From Escherichia coli (GTDB lineage Bacteria > Pseudomonadota > Gammaproteobacteria > Enterobacterales > Enterobacteriaceae), in the NCBI RefSeq assembly GCF_046105845.1, contig NZ_CP151004.1: 64,000 nucleotides of DNA, one strand, 5' to 3'. Shown here piece by piece: positions 6,401 to 12,400 of the stretch; within the stretch, counting starts at the first letter, position 1, and every line of letters begins with the position of its first letter. A program made the position numbers.

Positions 6401-9400
6401 GGTTATGCGCTGATGCCTGATGCGGCGCGGGCGCGTCTTATCATGCCTGGAAGTCTGCGCCCGAATCGTAGGCCGCCTCCGCTATATTAACTGGCATTGG
6501 CAAATTACTCGTCACTACCTTTATTCATGTTTTTTTGGTCTTCATCCGGATAATGTTTTTTTAGATATTCCAGGACGTTTTTATTGACCTTGTGTTGCGT
6601 ATACACCCACCCTTTCCAGTAATCAGGCTGGTCCAGGTAAACTTCTGGCGGAATGGTGAAATCAGAAAGCGTTAACCATTCGGCTAACAGATCGGGGTTT
6701 CGTTTCTGGATTAACTGCAACAGCATAATCAGTGACATAGCTGAGGCAGGAGCCGTACTATCACCACTCAAATATTTCCACACTGTTGACCGGTTCGAAC
6801 GAAAAAGGATCGGTAGCAATGCCCGGTCCAGATTCATTTCATTAAAAATCTTCTCAAATTCATTCATTTAAATTTTCCTGCCTGGCGTAAACCTCTTAAA
6901 AATTGAGATTTATCAAAGAAACGCATTTTAGCACACATCAGGAACCGCTTCACGTTTAGTTCAGAAACAGAATTTATTTCGCTTATCAAAACAAGTCTTT
7001 ACTCTTTTTTACATTGAAAGAGCACAAAATGATTTTCTATTTTATTTATATAAGAAACATTTTTTGTTTCTTATTGGTGGTGTTTACGCTTACACCAGAC
7101 AAAAATGCGCTTTACATCACACAAATGGCGGCGTAGATTTCGATCAAATTGCAACGCAGATTAATTCTTATAACAACGTTTTACGTTGCTTATAGAAACA
7201 AATATGTGACTTACTTTGAAAGAGAAAAAATGCATGAAAACTGTAAAGCTGTCTTTACTGGCTGTCGTTGTTGCTACCGCGGTAAGTCCATCTGCGTTTG
7301 CGGGTGATACTGTTGAGGCGGCAACGACAGAATTAACGGCAATCCAGCCAGGAATGTCGCAATCGGAAATTGATCAGAAAATTGGTCGATTTTTAGAAAG
7401 GACAGGGAATAGTGCAGCCGCACAAAATTATCTGATTGCGCATGATTACCGGACAACGACACCTCAGGAAAATACAGCTGCCTCTCCCGTACAGCCCGCC
7501 AATACGCTGAACCCGATAACCAATCAAGCGCAGACCGACCGCGACAACGGGCAGGATACCGCCATTCAGGACGCACAACATGCCGCCAACTGGGCTTCAC
7601 TGAAAGCTGATGACGCGCAGCACGCCATCACGGTGGCGCAGACGGATATTGATGCCAATAAAGCCGCCATCGCCGACACCCGTAATGATGTCTCCGCAGT
7701 GCAGTCAGACGTCACCAACATAAAAGGCGATGTCGCACATGCCCAGTCAACGGCTGACCATGCCAACGCTAACGCCAACACCGCTCTGATGAACGGCGTC
7801 AAACTTTCCGGTGCTGTGGCAGAAAACAAAAACAATATCGAACAGAACCGCAGCGATATTGCTGACCAGCAGAAACTGTTGGCATCAAACGAGCAAAAAC
7901 AGATCGTCCGCGACAACGGGCAGGATACCGCCATTCAGGACGCGCAACATGCCGCCAACTGGGCTTCACTGAAAGCTGATGACGCGCAGCACGCCATCAC
8001 GGTGGCGCAGACGGATATTGATGCCAATAAAGCCGCCATCGCCGACACCCGTAATGATGTCTCCGCAGTGCAGTCAGACGTCACCAACATAAAAGGCGAT
8101 GTCGCACATGCCCAGTCAACGGCTGACCATGCCAACGCTAACGCCAACACCGCTCTGATGAACGGCGTCAAACTTTCCGGTGCTGTGGCAGAAAACAAAA
8201 ACAATATCGAACAGAACCGCAGCGATATTGCTGACCAGCAGAAACTGTTGGCATCAAACGAGCAAAAACAGATCGTCCGCGACAACGGGCAGGATACCGC
8301 CATTCAGGACGCGCAACATGCCGCCAACTGGGCTTCAATGAAAGCTGATGACGCGCAGCACGCCATTATGGTGGCGCAGACGGATATTGATGCCAATAAA
8401 GCCGCCATCGCCGACACCCGTAATGATGTCTCCGCAGTGCAGTCAGACGTCACCAACATAAAAGGCGATGTCGCACATGCCCAGTCAACGGCTGACCATG
8501 CCAACGCTAACGCCAACACCGCTCTGATGAACGGCGTCAAACTTTCCGGTGCTGTGACAGAAAACAAAAACAACATCGAACAGAACCGCAGCGATATTGC
8601 CGACCAGCAGAAACTGTTGGCATCAAACGAGCAAAAACAGATCGTCCGCGACAACGGGCAGGATACCGCCATTCAGGACGCACAACATGCCGCCAACTGG
8701 GCTTCAATGAAAGCTGATGACGCGCAGCACGCCATTATGGTGGCGCAGACGGATATTGATGCCAATAAAGCCGCCATCGCCGACACCCGTAATGATGTCT
8801 CCGCAGTGCAGTCAGACGTCACCAACATAAAAGGCGATGTCGCACATGCCCAGTCAACGGCTGACCATGCCAACGCTAACGCCAACACCGCTCTGATGAA
8901 CGGCGTCAAACTTTCCGGTGCTGTGACAGAAAACAAAAACAACATCGAACAGAACCGCAGCGATATTGCCGACCAGCAGAAACTGTTGGCATCAAACGAG
9001 CAAAAACAGATCGTCCGCGACAACGGGCAGGATACCGCCATTCAGGACGCACAACATGCCGCCAACTGGGCTTCAATGAAAGCTGATGACGCGCAGCACG
9101 CCATTATGGTGGCGCAGACGGATATTGATGCCAATAAAGCCGCCATCGCCGACACCCGTAATGATGTCTCCGCAGTGCAGTCAGACGTCACCAACATAAA
9201 AGGCGATGTCGCACATGCCCAGTCAACGGCTGACCATGCCAACGCTAACGCCAACACCGCTCTGATGAACGGCGTCAAACTTTCCGGTGCTGTGACAGAA
9301 AACAAAAATAATATCGAACAGAACCGCAGCGATATTGCTGACCAACAGCAACAACTCGACGAAACCCGGAAAACCGTTGCCGCCACCGGTGATGTACAGA

Positions 9401-12400
9401 CTGCCGCCCGATATCAGAGCATGATTGACGCCAGACAGACTGCTGCTGCCAATGCGCAACAGGAACAAGCGGACACCCAGCAGCAACAAATGGACGATCA
9501 GCAGAAACAAATCGACGCGACGCAAAAAACGGTTTCCGCACTTGGCGATGCCCAGACCAACGCACATTATCAAGAGATGGTTAACGCCGGACTGAGAGCA
9601 CAAAATGATGCGAATGCGCGTACTGCAGCAGAACAAAAACAAAAAATAGATACTCTGGCGACTAACCAGGCAACGCAACAGCATATCGATAGTGTGCAGT
9701 ACGGGGAACAAATTCAGCGTCTGGCGCAAGACTCAACACAAACGCATGAACAAATTGACAGCCTGACACAAGACGTAACCCAAACGCATCAGCAGTTAAG
9801 CAACACGCAAAAACGAGTAGCGGATAATAGCCAGCAGATTACTACGCTCAATAACCATTTCAGTTCGCTGAAAAACGAAGTTGAGGACAACCGTAAAGAA
9901 GCCAATGCGGGAACTGCATCAGCCATCGCTATCGCCTCACAACCACAGGTGAAAGCCGGTGACTTTATGATGATGTCAGCGGGAGCGGGAACCTTCAACG
10001 GTGAATCTGCGGTGTCTGTCGGAACATCTTTTAATGCCGGAACGCATACCGTGATTAAAGCCGGTGTCTCTGCGGATACGCAATCTGATTTCGGCGCGGG
10101 TGTCGGCGTGGGATATTCTTTCTAATATTCCAATCCTCAATATAAATAAGAGCAAGGAAGCTTGCCGGGTTTCACCTCTTCATTAATTTGTACATTATTT
10201 AAGGTTAACAATGATGAATAGTTCCATTAAATCGTTTTCCCTGCTGGCGGTTATATTACTGGCTGGCTGTAGTTCACCCACTTCCCGCATCGCAGATTGC
10301 CAGGCGCAGGGCGTCAGCCATGACACCTGTTATCTCGCAGAACAACAGCGTCAGACGGCTATTTTAAGTGCATCCGAGGCGCAGGCATTTAAAAATGCAG
10401 AAGCCGCACAACATGCCCAGGCGGCAAAGAAAGCCATTTATAAAGGATTTGGCATGACCTTTAGAATGAGCAGTAAGAACTTTGCTTATCTCAATGATTC
10501 ATTATGTGCAATTGATGAAGACAATAAAGATGCCACTGTTTATCAGTCAGGTCTTTATAACGTCATTGTTTATCACCACACGGGAAAAGTCGCCTTAATG
10601 AAGGAAGGTCAGTTTGTGGGTTATTTAAAATGAAGGAGCAAAGGAAAATCCCCCTGACGCATATTATGATTATCGGTGCGTTTATTTTTGCCTTCTTGCA
10701 AGTGGTGTTATTAGCCTCCCTGGTTCACGCTGTGAATGTTAACAATGAAATCCAGGAAGGCTTATTTCAATCGGGGCGCATAATGGTAGAAAGTTTGCAG
10801 CATATTCTTTCGGTGCAAACGGGGATTAACTGATTTTCACCCCGCCCGATGATGACAGCAGCCGGAGAGATTTTCGATAATCGGGCAGTCGGCGCTGTCA
10901 TCGCCAGGGCAGGCATTCGCCAGCGCCAACAGCTGGTTGCGCATGGATTGCAGTTCTTCGATATGTCGCTCGATCTCCGCCACTTTCTCCAGGGTGCGAC
11001 GTTTGACGTCGGCACTGTGACGCTGCGGATCGTTAAACAGATTCACCAGCTCGCCGCTCTCTTCCAGGTTAAAGCCCACCTGGCGTGCCTGGCGCAGTAA
11101 GGTCAGTTCGTTGAGATGCTGCTGCGTGTAAGTACGATAACCGTTTTCGCTGCGCATCGGCGGCGTCACCAGCCCCTTCTCTTCATAGAAGCGGATTGCT
11201 TTGCTGGTCAGGCCGGTAATTTTTGCTACATCGCTAATGTTCATCGTTCGCGCAACGCCTCCTGTGCTTTATTAAAGGGTTTCAACAGATAATCCAGCAC
11301 GCTTTTTTTGCCGGTGCGGATATCGACCGTCGCCACCATGCCGGGAAATATCGGAAACTGCTGTTTACTTTTGTTTTCCAGATGGTTGCTGAAAGTGCGA
11401 ATGTACACCCGATAGTAATAAACATCGCGCCGCACTTCATCCTGCACGGTGTCTGGTGATATCACCGCCACTTCTCCCGGCAGGCCGCCGTAGATGGAGT
11501 AATCGTAGGCGGTTATTTTCACCAGCGATTTTTGCCCCGGATGGATAAACGCCACATCGCGCGGGGAGATTTTTGCCTCGATCAGCAGTTGCTCATCCAG
11601 CGGCACGATGGTCATCAGTTTACCACCGGGGGCAATGACCCCGCCAACCGTGGTGACGTCAATGTCCTGAACAATGCCTCGCACCGGCGCGGTAAAGTTG
11701 AGCCTGGTGAGGGAGTCTTCCCGTCCACGGATCACCGAACGCTGGGTTTCCACTTCCGCATTGGCTTTCGCTAACTCTTCGCGCGCCTGAACGTAATATT
11801 GCGTGCGCACGTCGCTAAGTTTGTTTTCCAGTTCATTGGCCTGGCGTTGCAGGCGCAGCACTTCAACGCTGCTCGCCGCCCCCTGTTTTACCAGCGGCTG
11901 GGTCATCGCCAGTTCGCGGTTGACCAGGCTAATCCCCTGCGTCAGCCCGGTGGTGGCTTTGTTCAGCCCATCGCGGCGAGTGTTGTACAACGCCGTTTCC
12001 GACTCGATAAGTTCGGGGAATTTATTCAGTTCGTCAGGGAAGACCAGCGGTTTATTGCTCACTTCCGCCCGCAGCCGCGCCGAGGTTGCCAGCGCCGCGT
12101 ACAGCCGCGACATTGCTTCCTGGACGTCGGATTCCGTTTTGGTGCGGTTAAGCTGCGCCAGCGGCTGGCCCTGTTCAACAATATCGCCAACCTTGACGTC
12201 GAGATGATACAGAATTCCGCCTTCCAGCGACTGCACCACCTGTTCGCGCCCGGAGGGTTCTACCGTGCCGCTGCCGGTGGTGACTTCATCAAGCTGGAAG
12301 TACCACGCCCAGCCGAGAAAACAGAGCAGCATCACAGCGGTAACGCGTACCGCCAGCGCCGAACGCGGCAAGCGGGGTTCAGTCAGGCCACGGTTGTATT

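What the first reader, a model, noticed from the sequence alone, without database searches (positions are those of the whole stretch)
7234..10125. Headless trimeric-autotransporter-like adhesin built largely from perfect 369-bp tandem repeats
The 963-aa product has a signal peptide and a YadA-type C-terminal anchor, but the passenger lacks recognisable head repeats and consists almost entirely of coiled-coil-like sequence, including five consecutive 123-aa units encoded by nearly identical DNA (two variants, A-A-B-B-B). Such identity implies recent expansion and predicts strain-to-strain copy-number variation. Gene and neighbours sit between ybbJ and cueR, which are adjacent in K-12, so it is accessory.
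Basis: partly seen in the sequence, partly recalled or inferred. Interest (0 to 1): 0.6.

Follow-up and report, generated by a model that had tools for sequence, protein, structure and literature searches.

The report
Length-variable coiled-coil trimeric autotransporter (OI-29)
This is a real E. coli surface-fibre gene of the trimeric-autotransporter type whose stalk is lengthened by five near-identical 123-residue repeats (other strains carry zero to four), an ordinary kind of adhesin gene, except that its repeat-free O157:H7 version has been published as a transcription factor called GmrA, which its sequence does not support.

Summary
ORF 7234-10125 (+) encodes 963 aa and contains five in-frame tandem 369-bp units (7531-9375). 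The units are near-identical, not perfect: they differ by 1-9 nt, and the fifth diverges after about nt 338.

The C-terminus matches the YadA anchor (Pfam E=8e-11; solved AtaA, Hia and YadA anchors). AlphaFold predicts a 3-helix N-terminal cap, a disordered linker, long helices covering a whole unit, and four terminal β-strands. No head, neck or stalk Pfam model matches.

The gene lies in a 4.5-kb insert between ybbJ and cueR, which abut in K-12. This insert is O-island 29 of O157:H7.

Among 5,426 complete E. coli genomes, 350 carry the unit in 1-4 copies (median 2). About 1,070 more carry a 338-aa allele with no unit. The window's five copies exceed all of them, so the predicted copy-number variation is confirmed.

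Best explanation: a Sec- and BAM-dependent type Vc surface fibre in which each unit adds about 18 nm of stalk. An adhesive function is inferred, not shown.

The zero-repeat ortholog (Z0639/ECs_0548) is the published "transcriptional activator GmrA". RefSeq truncates the long alleles at the N-terminus.

Verdict: a new member of a known kind, of moderate interest.

The parts
6505..6867 (-). Divergently transcribed 120-aa gene (ortholog of O157 z0640/ECs_0549); a possible HTH-type regulator of the cassette
   Evidence: ORF. It has only a weak Pfam hit, to the C-terminal (HTH) part of MqsA (E=0.12). It sits in the same divergent position next to related autotransporters in other taxa: 46% identity in L011, 45% in L012 and 29% in Rahnella L008.
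6868..7233 (.). AT-rich divergent intergenic and promoter region
   Evidence: GC is 0.335 at 6900-7299, against 0.54-0.57 in the flanks. Sequence read. Promoter-like hits are no more frequent than in shuffles.
7234..10125 (+). Trimeric-autotransporter (type Vc) gene, 963 aa; the five-repeat allele of z0639/ECs_0548 ('gmrA')
7234..7302 (+). Sec signal peptide, residues 1-23 (MKTVK / LSLLAVVVATAV / SPSAFA|GD)
   Evidence: Read directly from the translation: a basic n-region, a 12-residue hydrophobic core and an A-x-A cleavage motif. No signal-peptide predictor was available. AlphaFold pLDDT is below 50 for residues 1-24.
7303..7440 (+). Conserved N-terminal three-helix module (residues 24-69), the only non-stalk part of the passenger
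   Evidence: AlphaFold pLDDT is 85-89 in the whole-protein model and 87 (pTM 0.73) when folded alone. Twenty-two of 55 columns are invariant across alleles and a 708-aa relative. No significant PDB fold match was found.
7441..7530 (+). Pro/Thr/Gln-rich linker (residues 70-99), predicted disordered
   Evidence: pLDDT is below 50 at residues 77-93, with no secondary structure at 70-96.
7531..9375 (+). Five in-frame tandem 369-bp units (123 aa each; variants A-A-B-B-B); the last unit diverges after about nt 338 (TRF array end 9352)
   Evidence: The unit is predicted to be one continuous helix (H97-225 in the one-copy allele). It shows a 3.5-residue hydrophobic period and three [IVL]xxNxxx[IVLA] motifs per unit.
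9376..9942 (+). Distal, non-repeated stalk (residues 715-903), shared with the O157 zero-repeat allele; contains an old degenerate ~50-aa duplication and short 21/42-bp repeats
   Evidence: Residues 709-963 are 75% identical to ECs_0548. Helices H230-278 and H281-409 appear in the one-copy model. TRF rows at 9460-9517 and 9706-9789.
9943..10125 (+). YadA-type membrane anchor (residues 904-963, four β-strands, C-terminal ...GVGYSF) plus the stop codon
   Evidence: Pfam PF03895, E=8.1e-11, full model length 1-60. PDB hits are AtaA 9vnj (E=9e-7), Hia 2gr7/3emo and YadA 2lme. Four strands are predicted. A period-2 hydrophobicity peak is present.
10211..10633 (+). 140-aa lipoprotein (LAGC lipobox), ortholog of z0638/ECs_0546; a conserved partner gene of this autotransporter subfamily
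   Evidence: ORF. No match in Pfam, PDB or PHROGs. It is 47% identical (E=5e-41) to the gene downstream of the Rahnella homolog and 49% identical (E=1e-45) in L011.
10630..10833 (+). 67-aa small hydrophobic protein, overlapping the lipoprotein stop by 4 nt
   Evidence: ORF; annotated as hypothetical in RefSeq genomes. A 73-aa ORF sits in the same overlapping position in Rahnella but shows no detectable similarity.

Best explanation
The gene encodes a type Vc (trimeric) autotransporter, a surface fibre of E. coli.

**How it most likely works.**
- The 23-residue signal peptide takes each chain across the inner membrane through Sec.
- The last ~60 residues of three chains each contribute four β-strands to a 12-stranded outer-membrane barrel, assembled by BAM.
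- The passenger is threaded out and zips into a parallel three-stranded coiled coil.
- The fibre is capped by a small three-helix module on a flexible linker.

**Role of the repeats.** The five 123-residue units are rigid helical stalk segments. Each adds about 18 nm, which gives about 119 nm of helix here, against about 28 nm for the repeat-free O157 allele. Unequal recombination between the near-identical 369-bp units changes the copy number between strains (0-5 seen). This sets how far the fibre projects beyond the LPS/capsule, and how many copies of any stalk-borne binding site it displays.

**Genetic context.** The gene is part of a four-gene accessory cassette (O-island 29). The cassette comprises a divergent small HTH-like gene, the autotransporter, a dedicated lipoprotein and a small membrane protein.

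**Shown versus inferred.**
- Shown: the architecture, the repeats, the population polymorphism and the conservation of the cassette.
- Inferred: trimerisation, surface display, the adhesive or aggregative function, and length tuning as the selective reason for copy-number change.
For: **Anchor and stalk.**
- The YadA_anchor match covers the full Pfam model at the extreme C-terminus, and the solved anchors of AtaA, Hia and YadA are matched.
- AlphaFold gives helix 97-225 (a whole unit), helices 230-278 and 281-409, then four β-strands.
- Each unit shows a hydrophobic period of 3.5, and the anchor shows a period of 2.
- There are 17 [IVL]xxNxxx[IVLA] motifs in the stalk, against 4.3±2.0 in shuffles. 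Asn at core position d is a hallmark of autotransporter coiled coils (from my own knowledge of the family). The repeated units inflate this count.
- The signal peptide was read directly from the translation.

**Copy-number polymorphism.**
- The unit is found in 350 of 5,426 complete genomes, in 607 places: lowest 1, median 2, highest 4.
- Intact ORFs exist with 1, 2, 3 and 4 units: 471, 594, 717 and 840 aa. The zero-unit allele is 338 aa.
- Units are shared and rearranged between strains. Window u1 equals AST215 u1 and u2, window u2 equals AST215 u3, and window u5 equals the last unit of L007.

**Accessory status and cassette.**
- cueR and ybbJ abut in K-12.
- The cassette is conserved in Rahnella and two other lineages.
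- The zero-repeat ortholog is transcribed in O157 (RPKM 96; PMC5826968 supplementary table S3).
Against: - No experiment shows surface display or adhesion for any allele.
- Deleting all of OI-29 in O157:H7 did not change adherence to HeLa or Caco-2 cells (PMC5826968).
- The published function of the ortholog is different: a transcriptional activator.
- The AlphaFold model is a monomer of moderate confidence (mean pLDDT 67), so trimeric packing is not modelled.
- My heptad tracking is crude. It leaves parts of each unit unassigned, so local breaks in the coiled coil cannot be excluded.
- The exact count of five units in this window cannot be verified without reads.
Confidence: 0.82

Rival explanations
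1. The protein is, like its published O157:H7 ortholog GmrA (Z0639), a cytoplasmic transcriptional activator. It would bind the fliA promoter and switch on flagellar synthesis, with the repeats merely extending a DNA-binding or oligomerisation scaffold.
For: Yang et al. 2018 (PMC5826968) report the following for the zero-repeat ortholog:
- reduced motility and flagellation in ΔgmrA mutants, with complementation;
- an EMSA with His-tagged protein;
- ChIP-qPCR with a C-terminal 3xFLAG fusion;
- the same motility phenotype in several pathotypes.

Reviews up to 2024 repeat this assignment. I confirmed that their gmrA is this gene. The deletion primers flank ECs_0548 exactly, and the cloning primers encode MKTVNVAL... 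and ...GVGYSF.
Against: - ECs_0548 has the same signal peptide and a full YadA anchor (E=2.6e-11). It has no significant DNA-binding family in Pfam. The only DNA-related hit is TMF_DNA_bd at E=0.16, on a coiled-coil stretch.
- None of the NCBIfam hits to the long allele is a DNA-binding regulator family; they are long coiled-coil proteins (SMC/Rad50) and other hits far below cut-off.
- Both proteins are strongly acidic, with pI 4.7; the O157 protein has 35 Asp+Glu against 20 Lys+Arg.
- The C-terminal FLAG fusion used for ChIP masks the terminal aromatic residue that barrel assembly needs (family knowledge), so that construct may have been mislocalised.
- The motility phenotype may be real but indirect.
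Confidence: 0.05
2. The 123-residue units are ligand-binding or self-association modules, not primarily spacers. This would resemble immunoglobulin binding by Eib stalks or fibronectin binding by BadA stalk repeats. Copy number would then tune avidity or autoaggregation rather than reach. This reading is compatible with the same secretion mechanism.
For: - A motif of the unit (HAI[M/T]VAQxDIDANKAAI) is conserved in distant relatives from Rahnella and others, which are otherwise only about 31% identical. That suggests more constraint than a bare spacer needs.
- Relatives at 64-72% identity carry two old, diverged copies of the unit (P0015 and P0018), so the module has been retained for a long time.
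- Stalk-borne binding sites are documented in other trimeric autotransporters (PMC9602544, listed, plus family knowledge).
Against: - No ligand is known.
- About 1,070 genomes keep an allele with no unit at all, so the unit is dispensable for whatever the core protein does.
- The units show no similarity to solved Eib, SadA or NadA stalk fragments at E<=1.
Confidence: 0.3
3. The array, or its count of five, is an assembly artefact: a duplication introduced by the assembler.
For: No complete RefSeq genome has more than four units. The closest genome, AST215 (99.2-99.5% identical in the flanks), has four.
Against: - Units differ from one another at specific positions and share exact variants with units of other strains.
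- Arrays of 2-4 units are present in hundreds of independent complete assemblies.
- A 962-aa allele of similar length, carrying about 4.5 units plus a duplicated distal segment, exists in an unrelated ENA assembly (P0001).
- The reading frame is preserved.
- Assemblers usually collapse such repeats rather than expand them.
Confidence: 0.03
4. The gene is a silent or decaying relic with no current function, and the repeat variation is neutral slippage.
For: - The gene is interrupted or frameshifted in some strains: an IS1397 insertion in strain 7CC (H26) and a frameshift in O145 RM12522.
- The upstream region is AT-rich, typical of silenced horizontally acquired DNA.
- OI-29 deletion had no adherence phenotype.
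Against: - The ORF is intact in all five copy-number classes examined, despite 1.1-2.9 kb of repeat-rich sequence in which any out-of-frame change would truncate it.
- All length changes seen are multiples of 369 (or 42) nt.
- The cassette is conserved across genera.
- The ortholog is transcribed.
Confidence: 0.07

Closest known systems
GmrA / Z0639 / ECs_0548 of E. coli O157:H7 (O-island 29; Yang et al. 2018, PMC5826968; called 'Saa-like protein' in Ogura et al. 2007, PMC2323221)
   Same: It sits at the same chromosomal site between ybbJ and cueR, with the same neighbours: the z0640-like gene, the lipoprotein z0638 and the small ORF. The C-terminal 255 residues are 75% identical. The signal peptide and N-terminal module also align (46% identity over the 158-residue N-terminal alignment). 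Both have the same YadA anchor. It is the ortholog.
   Different: The O157 allele is 338 aa and has no 123-residue unit; the array sits exactly between '...QTD(R/P)D(N/A)GQ' and 'KTVAATGD...'. The published function, a DNA-binding activator of fliA, is not supported by any sequence feature I could test. The paper's clade 4 (042, UMN026, PCN033) corresponds to the repeat-bearing alleles, but the repeats are not mentioned.
Coiled-coil-dominated trimeric autotransporters without a YadA-type head (Neisseria NadA; Haemophilus HadA), cited from my own knowledge and PMC6191539
   Same: The overall plan is the same: signal peptide, small N-terminal cap, long trimeric coiled coil, then a four-strand anchor. 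This is what the protein most resembles in how it works.
   Different: No sequence relationship was detected. Solved NadA fragments are not among the PDB matches at E<=1. NadA and HadA lack 123-residue tandem units and the OI-29 partner genes.
Saa (STEC autoagglutinating adhesin, plasmid pO113) and other repeat-variable autotransporters (BadA, UspA)
   Same: These are trimeric autotransporters whose length varies between strains through tandem repeats in the passenger (family knowledge; BadA stalk repeats in PMC9602544).
   Different: tblastn against 72,556 plasmids gave no Saa-type hit at E<=1e-5; only anchor-level matches to unrelated YadA-anchor genes appeared. The 'Saa-like' label therefore reflects the shared anchor class, not orthology.
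Eib immunoglobulin-binding proteins and UpaG/EhaG/SadA of enterobacteria
   Same: They share the YadA anchor and the stalk just before it. The C-terminal ~200 residues match PHROG 17426 'adhesin' (E=1e-20).
   Different: None of the YadA head, neck or stalk motifs that build UpaG, EhaG, SadA and Eib was found. Solved EibD and SadA fragments are not matched at E<=1. This gene is chromosomal, not prophage-borne, with no repeat-region hit in 50,697 phage records.
SadB-SadA (a lipoprotein that assists display of a trimeric autotransporter in Salmonella), cited from my own knowledge
   Same: A lipoprotein gene is genetically coupled to a trimeric autotransporter gene, and here the coupling is conserved across genera.
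   Different: The lipoprotein lies downstream rather than upstream. It shows no detectable similarity to any solved structure, SadB included, at E<=10, and has no Pfam family. A helper role is only an analogy.

Membership tests
Trimeric autotransporter adhesins (type Vc secretion) | C-terminal YadA-like anchor (~60-70 residues, four β-strands per chain, aromatic C-terminal residue) | tested here: met
   Pfam PF03895 at residues 904-963, covering model positions 1-60 of 60, E=8.1e-11. Solved anchors of AtaA, Hia and YadA are matched. Four strands are predicted. The protein ends in ...GYSF.
Trimeric autotransporter adhesins (type Vc secretion) | N-terminal Sec signal peptide | tested here: met
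   By inspection only: MKTVK + LSLLAVVVATAV + SPSAFA|GD. No dedicated predictor was available.
Trimeric autotransporter adhesins (type Vc secretion) | α-helical coiled-coil stalk running into the anchor | tested here: met
   A continuous predicted helix runs from residue 281 to 409, directly before the strands, and helix 97-225 covers the unit. A 3.5-residue periodicity peak and a clean a/d register are seen over about 50 residues per unit and over residues 829-888. Motifs with Asn at core position d are enriched.
Trimeric autotransporter adhesins (type Vc secretion) | Obligate homotrimer inserted in the outer membrane, with the passenger on the surface | not testable with these tools
   This needs SDS-resistant trimer detection, fractionation and surface labelling.
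Trimeric autotransporter adhesins (type Vc secretion) | Adhesive, aggregative or serum-resistance function | not testable with these tools
   The only experiment on the locus, ΔOI-29 in O157:H7, showed unchanged adherence to HeLa and Caco-2 cells (PMC5826968).
YadA/UpaG/EhaG/SadA/Eib-type 'lollipop' adhesins | YadA-like head repeats, neck and stalk connector motifs (Pfam YadA_head, YadA_stalk, etc.) | tested here: not met
   None is listed among the 27 Pfam domain hits even at E<=10. No PDB match to EibD or SadA passenger fragments at E<=1.
Saa family | Sequence similarity of the passenger to Saa of pO113 | tested here: not met
   tblastn against PLSDB plasmids gave only anchor-level hits to other genes at E<=1e-5. 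Caveat: I did not verify that pO113 is in that collection.
GmrA / Z0639 orthologous group (OI-29) | Same locus and gene neighbours, with alignable N- and C-terminal parts | tested here: met
   Synteny. 75% identity over 255 C-terminal residues, and the N-terminal ~75 residues align. Primer mapping identifies gmrA as ECs_0548.
GmrA as a transcription factor | A recognisable DNA-binding domain and cytoplasmic location | tested here: not met
   No significant DNA-binding family in Pfam for ECs_0548; TMF_DNA_bd scores E=0.16 on a coiled coil. None in Pfam or NCBIfam for the long allele. A signal peptide and an outer-membrane anchor are present, and the pI is 4.7. Location itself cannot be tested here.

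The most novel reading that the evidence does not exclude
OI-29 is a self-contained four-gene surface-fibre module comprising an HTH-like regulator, a trimeric autotransporter, a dedicated lipoprotein and a small membrane protein. In this reading the autotransporter feeds back on flagellar gene expression through envelope or surface signalling. The published GmrA motility phenotype would then be real, but would arise from an outer-membrane fibre rather than from DNA binding. 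Stalk length (0-5 units) would tune this adhesion-versus-motility switch between lineages.
Probability: 0.1. Interest if true: 0.7.

Novelty: new member of a known kind. Interest (0 to 1): 0.4.

Why it matters
As an object this is an ordinary class of adhesin gene. Tandem-repeat length variation in trimeric autotransporters is well known. The gene is already labelled 'YadA-like' in databases and was counted as a trimeric autotransporter in the E. coli 042 genome paper.

Three by-products matter more than the repeat itself.

1. **A literature conflict.** The repeat-free ortholog is entrenched in the EHEC literature as the transcription factor GmrA. Its sequence says outer-membrane fibre. That conflict is directly testable and affects how the flagellar regulatory network of O157:H7 is drawn.
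2. **An annotation error.** RefSeq systematically annotates the long alleles from an internal start. This drops the signal peptide and all the repeats, so pan-genome and adhesin surveys will mis-size or miss this protein.
3. **A natural length series.** Alleles with 0-5 units, in steps of about 18 nm, and a genus-spanning linkage to an uncharacterised lipoprotein, offer a clean system. It could be used to study how fibre length affects adhesion and how type Vc passengers are assisted.

Tried and rejected
- **NCBIfam:** only sub-threshold coiled-coil look-alikes (Rad50, SMC) and spurious Hfq and DfrD hits with zero passing stretches. I rejected these as compositional.
- **PHROGs:** the unit gives a multi-stretch hit to 'minor head protein' phrog_19577 (E=3e-22 summed over five stretches). 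tblastn against 50,697 phage genomes found nothing in the repeat region at E<=1e-5, so I treat the hit as coiled-coil bias rather than phage origin.
- **Fold search of the N-terminal three-helix module against the PDB:** no match below E=1.8, so no functional clue.
- **PDB and Pfam searches of the lipoprotein and the 120-aa divergent protein:** nothing significant. SadB-like help therefore remains only an analogy.
- **Promoter and terminator scan of 6300-10900:** no more sites than in shuffled sequence.
- **The search for homologous proteins with the full repeat protein:** only 24 proteins returned, because repeated words saturated the candidate list. The exhaustive phmmer search with the one-copy allele was more informative (1,091 hits, mostly anchor plus ~70 stalk residues).
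- **Antisense ORFs:** the 122-aa minus-strand ORFs reiterated in every unit (7566-9041) are a mechanical consequence of the repeat. I did not pursue them.
- **Literature:** I looked for any paper linking 'GmrA' with 'trimeric autotransporter' and found none.

Full report
**1. The observation**

The window carries an open frame from 7216 (TTG), or more plausibly from the ATG at 7234, to 10125 on the + strand. From the ATG it encodes 963 residues beginning MKTVKLSLLAVVVATAVSPSAFA|GD.

Tandem Repeats Finder reports a 369-bp period with 4.9 copies, 98% matches, no indels and score 3511 at 7531-9352. The repeat finder shows five copies at exact 369-nt spacing.

I cut the array into five in-frame units starting at 7531, 7900, 8269, 8638 and 9007:
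- Units 1 and 2 differ by 3 nt, units 3 and 4 by 1 nt, and units 2 and 3 by 6 nt.
- Unit 5 loses similarity after about nt 338.

The repeats are therefore near-identical rather than perfect, and the description is otherwise accurate.

**2. Architecture of the protein**

- **Anchor.** Pfam finds one significant domain, YadA_anchor, over its full length at residues 904-963 (E=8.1e-11). Nothing else falls below E=0.01, and no head, neck or stalk model of trimeric autotransporters appears even at E<=10. phmmer against all PDB chains matches only the membrane anchors of AtaA, Hia and YadA.
- **Predicted structure.** I ran AlphaFold on the natural one-unit allele (471 aa, strain PCN033) with a 26-sequence alignment.

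  | Residues | Prediction |
  |---|---|
  | 1-24 | Low-confidence signal peptide |
  | 27-69 | Confident three-helix module (pLDDT 85-89) |
  | 70-96 | Disordered Pro/Thr/Gln-rich linker |
  | 97-225 | Unbroken helix spanning the whole 123-residue unit |
  | 230-278 and 281-409 | Helices |
  | 420-470 | Four β-strands |

- **N-terminal module.** Folded alone, the module reaches pLDDT 87 and pTM 0.73. It has no significant fold match in the PDB.
- **Periodicity.** A hydrophobicity spectrum shows a sharp 3.5-residue peak in every unit and a period-2 peak in the anchor. An a/d register can be followed for about 50 residues per unit and for residues 829-888 before the anchor.
- **Core motifs and length.** Each unit has three [IVL]xxNxxx[IVLA] motifs: IDANKAAI, VAENKNNI and IEQNRSDI. 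Asn at core position d is, from established knowledge of the family, typical of autotransporter trimeric coiled coils. 123 residues equal 16 heptads plus one hendecad, so units can join without breaking the supercoil (inference). At 0.148 nm per residue, one unit adds about 18 nm. The helical part is about 119 nm here, against about 28 nm for the repeat-free allele.

**3. Context**

In K-12, cueR ends at 514400 and ybbJ starts at 514401. In the window, 4.5 kb lies between them. It contains four elements:
- a divergent 120-aa gene (6505-6867, − strand);
- a 366-bp intergenic region at 33.5% GC;
- the autotransporter gene;
- a 140-aa lipoprotein (10211-10633) and an overlapping 67-aa ORF (10630-10833).

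On the other side of cueR lie a type I secretion system and an intact 6,929-aa SiiEA/BapA-like adhesin.

The same four-gene arrangement occurs in O157:H7 Sakai (ECs_0549, ECs_0548, ECs_0546), IAI39, 042 and others. This is O-island 29.

**4. Population variation**

A one-unit query finds the unit in 350 of 5,426 complete E. coli genomes, always chromosomal. There are 607 places in all: lowest 1, median 2, highest 4.

In the evenly spaced sample of 60 records:

| Units per genome | Records |
|---|---|
| 1 | 23 |
| 2 | 29 |
| 3 | 6 |
| 4 | 2 |

I checked representative loci. The ORF is intact, with its signal peptide, in every class:

| Units | Length (aa) | Strain |
|---|---|---|
| 1 | 471 | PCN033 |
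| 2 | 594 | WP7-S17-ESBL-01 |
| 3 | 717 | 042 |
| 4 | 840 | AST215 |
| 5 | 963 | this window |

About 1,070 further genomes carry a 338-aa allele with no unit, including O157:H7 and IAI39.

The window's five units exceed every complete RefSeq genome. Its nearest relative, AST215 (99.2-99.5% identical in the flanks), has four.

Comparing units across strains shows shared and rearranged variants:
- window u1 = AST215 u1 = AST215 u2;
- window u2 = AST215 u3;
- window u5 = the last unit of a two-unit strain.

This is what unequal crossing-over predicts.

Other variants also exist:
- Mosaic alleles duplicate part of the distal stalk as well (P0001 at 962 aa, P0003 at 825 aa).
- Relatives at 64-72% identity carry two old, diverged units (P0015, P0018).

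The module is therefore ancestral, and the near-identical copies are recent. Together with the substitutions that distinguish the units, this rules out an assembly artefact as the origin of the array. The exact count of five still needs a spanning read.

**5. What is known about it**

Ogura et al. 2007 list ECs0548 as a 'Saa-like protein' (PMC2323221). The 042 genome paper counts two trimeric autotransporters in that strain, UpaG and one other (PMC2808357).

The only functional study is Yang et al. 2018 (PMC5826968). It names z0639 'GmrA'. It reports that the protein has a putative DNA-binding domain, binds the fliA promoter (EMSA, ChIP-qPCR) and activates motility.

Three genes lie in the island, so I mapped the paper's primers onto the Sakai locus:
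- The gmrA deletion arms lie at L003 2828-2866 and 3884-3921, exactly flanking the YadA-anchor CDS at 2867-3883.
- The z0638 arms flank the lipoprotein gene, and the z0640 arms flank the 120-aa gene.
- The expression primers begin ATGAAAACTGTAAACGTAGCTTTA (MKTVNVAL), and the FLAG primer ends on ...GVGYSF.

GmrA is therefore the complete zero-repeat autotransporter.

Its sequence gives little support to a transcription-factor role:
- Pfam profile: YadA_anchor at E=2.6e-11 and nothing else significant. The only DNA-related line is TMF_DNA_bd at E=0.16, on a coiled-coil stretch. That may be what a conserved-domain search flagged in the paper (inference).
- The protein is acidic (pI 4.7) and has a signal peptide.
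- The window protein is 75% identical to it over the last 255 residues, and the N-terminal ~75 residues also align.

No paper in the searchable library contains both 'GmrA' and 'trimeric autotransporter'. Reviews to 2024 keep the transcription-factor description.

The motility phenotype may well be real. Direct DNA binding by a secreted, outer-membrane-anchored protein is what I consider unlikely.

**6. A conserved cassette**

The exhaustive phmmer search (1.84 billion representatives) gave 1,091 hits at E<=1e-3. Most of the 150 listed cover only the anchor plus about 70 stalk residues. Short coiled-coil-plus-anchor proteins are therefore a large class.

For four more distant relatives I looked at the neighbouring genes:
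- **Rahnella sp. AA.** The autotransporter is 31% identical. It has the same divergent small gene (29% identity, E=1e-9), a downstream lipoprotein (47%, E=5e-41) and an overlapping small ORF, all in an unrelated chromosomal context.
- **L011 and L012.** These repeat the pattern. The small gene is 46% and 45% identical, and the L011 lipoprotein is 49% identical.
- **P0058 (L010).** This relative shares the N-terminal module, but none of the partner genes is apparent among its called neighbours (called-gene list only, no comparisons run); it sits among DNA methylase genes.

In the Rahnella and L011 comparisons the lipoprotein is better conserved than the autotransporter. This points to a dedicated partnership. 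Its role is unknown: it has no Pfam, PDB or PHROG match.

**7. Annotation problem**

In RefSeq, the CDS called 'YadA-like family protein' covers only the last 349 codons in 042, AST215 and WP7-S17-ESBL-01, and 431 codons in PCN033. The full ORF is open in each.

In one search, the best-matching unit of 36 of the 37 listed multi-copy genomes lies under 'none'. The signal peptide and the repeats are thus missing from the reference proteome.

**8. Verdict**

The object is a trimeric autotransporter with a small helical cap instead of a β-rich head. Its stalk length is polymorphic through a 123-residue module.

It belongs to a known kind. Repeat-number variation in such adhesins is commonplace, and the gene is already labelled as YadA-like. 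I rate it a new member of a known kind, of moderate interest.

Most of that interest comes from three things: the conflict with the published GmrA assignment, the systematic truncation in RefSeq, and the conserved lipoprotein partner.

Noticed in passing
window 7234-10125; ortholog L003 2867-3883 (O157:H7 Sakai ECs_0548 = EDL933 z0639): The published 'transcriptional activator GmrA' (PMC5826968; repeated in reviews to 2024) is the zero-repeat allele of this YadA-anchor autotransporter. The authors' primers flank and encode the whole signal-peptide-to-anchor ORF. The protein has no significant DNA-binding family and a pI of 4.7. No paper in the library links GmrA with autotransporters.
   Followed up: yes
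L001 8040-9089, L002 5408-6457, L007 2939-3988, L006 1255-2550 (RefSeq CDS) versus the full ORFs at L001 6918-9089, L002 3917-6457, L007 2186-3988 and L006 1117-2550: RefSeq/PGAP annotates the repeat-bearing alleles from an internal start (349 or 431 codons). This drops the signal peptide and all the repeat units. In the one-unit search, the best-matching unit of 36 of 37 listed multi-copy genomes lies under no annotated feature.
   Followed up: partly
window 6505-6867 (-), 10211-10633 (+), 10630-10833 (+); L008 3346-6426; L011 2290-7716; L012 830-3234: The gene set 'divergent ~110-120-aa gene, autotransporter, ~140-aa lipoprotein, small overlapping ORF' is conserved around autotransporters that are only 31-45% identical, in Rahnella and two other lineages. 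The lipoprotein (47-49% identical) is better conserved than the autotransporter. It has no Pfam, PDB or PHROG match.
   Followed up: partly
window 11241-35368 (-): On the other side of cueR lie a HlyD-type adaptor (11241-12416), a type I secretion ABC/permease (12413-14575) and an intact 6,929-aa repetitive SiiEA/BapA-like adhesin (14579-35368). The adhesin gene is frameshifted in E. coli 042. cueR is thus sandwiched between two accessory adhesin islands. 959 of 5,426 genomes cover at least 80% of the cueR-adaptor-ABC segment.
   Followed up: partly
window 7566-9041 (-): Each 369-bp unit carries an antisense 122-aa ORF (four full copies plus a 114-aa one). These are a mechanical by-product of the repeat, and there is no evidence that they are genes.
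   Followed up: no
window 9376-9942; TRF rows 9460-9517 and 9706-9789: The non-repeated distal stalk contains an old, degenerate ~50-residue duplication (KTVAATGDVQTAARYQSMIDA... and KTVSALGDAQTNAHYQEMVNA...) and short 21-bp and 42-bp tandem repeats. One lineage (THO-008) has a locus length that differs from the expected value by 42 bp, on top of the difference in whole units.
   Followed up: partly
P0001 (962 aa, ENA) and P0003 (825 aa, NCBI): Mosaic alleles exist in which a unit is followed by a second copy of the 'QQQLDETRKTVAATGD...QQEQAD' distal segment and then by further units. Recombination therefore shuffles more than whole units.
   Followed up: no
H26 (strain 7CC), L005 2866-4175 (O145 RM12522-C8), L004 4659-6005 (IAI39): The locus is sometimes damaged. 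There is an IS1397 insertion in the region in strain 7CC, a frameshifted autotransporter pseudogene in an O145 strain, and an IS4 element between the small ORF and cueR in IAI39.
   Followed up: no
L010 (contig carrying P0058): A 708-aa YadA-anchor protein shares the same N-terminal three-helix module. It sits among DNA methylase genes and an Acb2/Tad1-like gene, which suggests a phage or mobile-element context for that relative.
   Followed up: no
H181 and H182 in the 'plasmids' collection (NZ_CP141089.1, NZ_CP134663.1): Two 4.9-Mb E. coli records in PLSDB are evidently chromosomes filed as plasmids, and they carry this locus.
   Followed up: no
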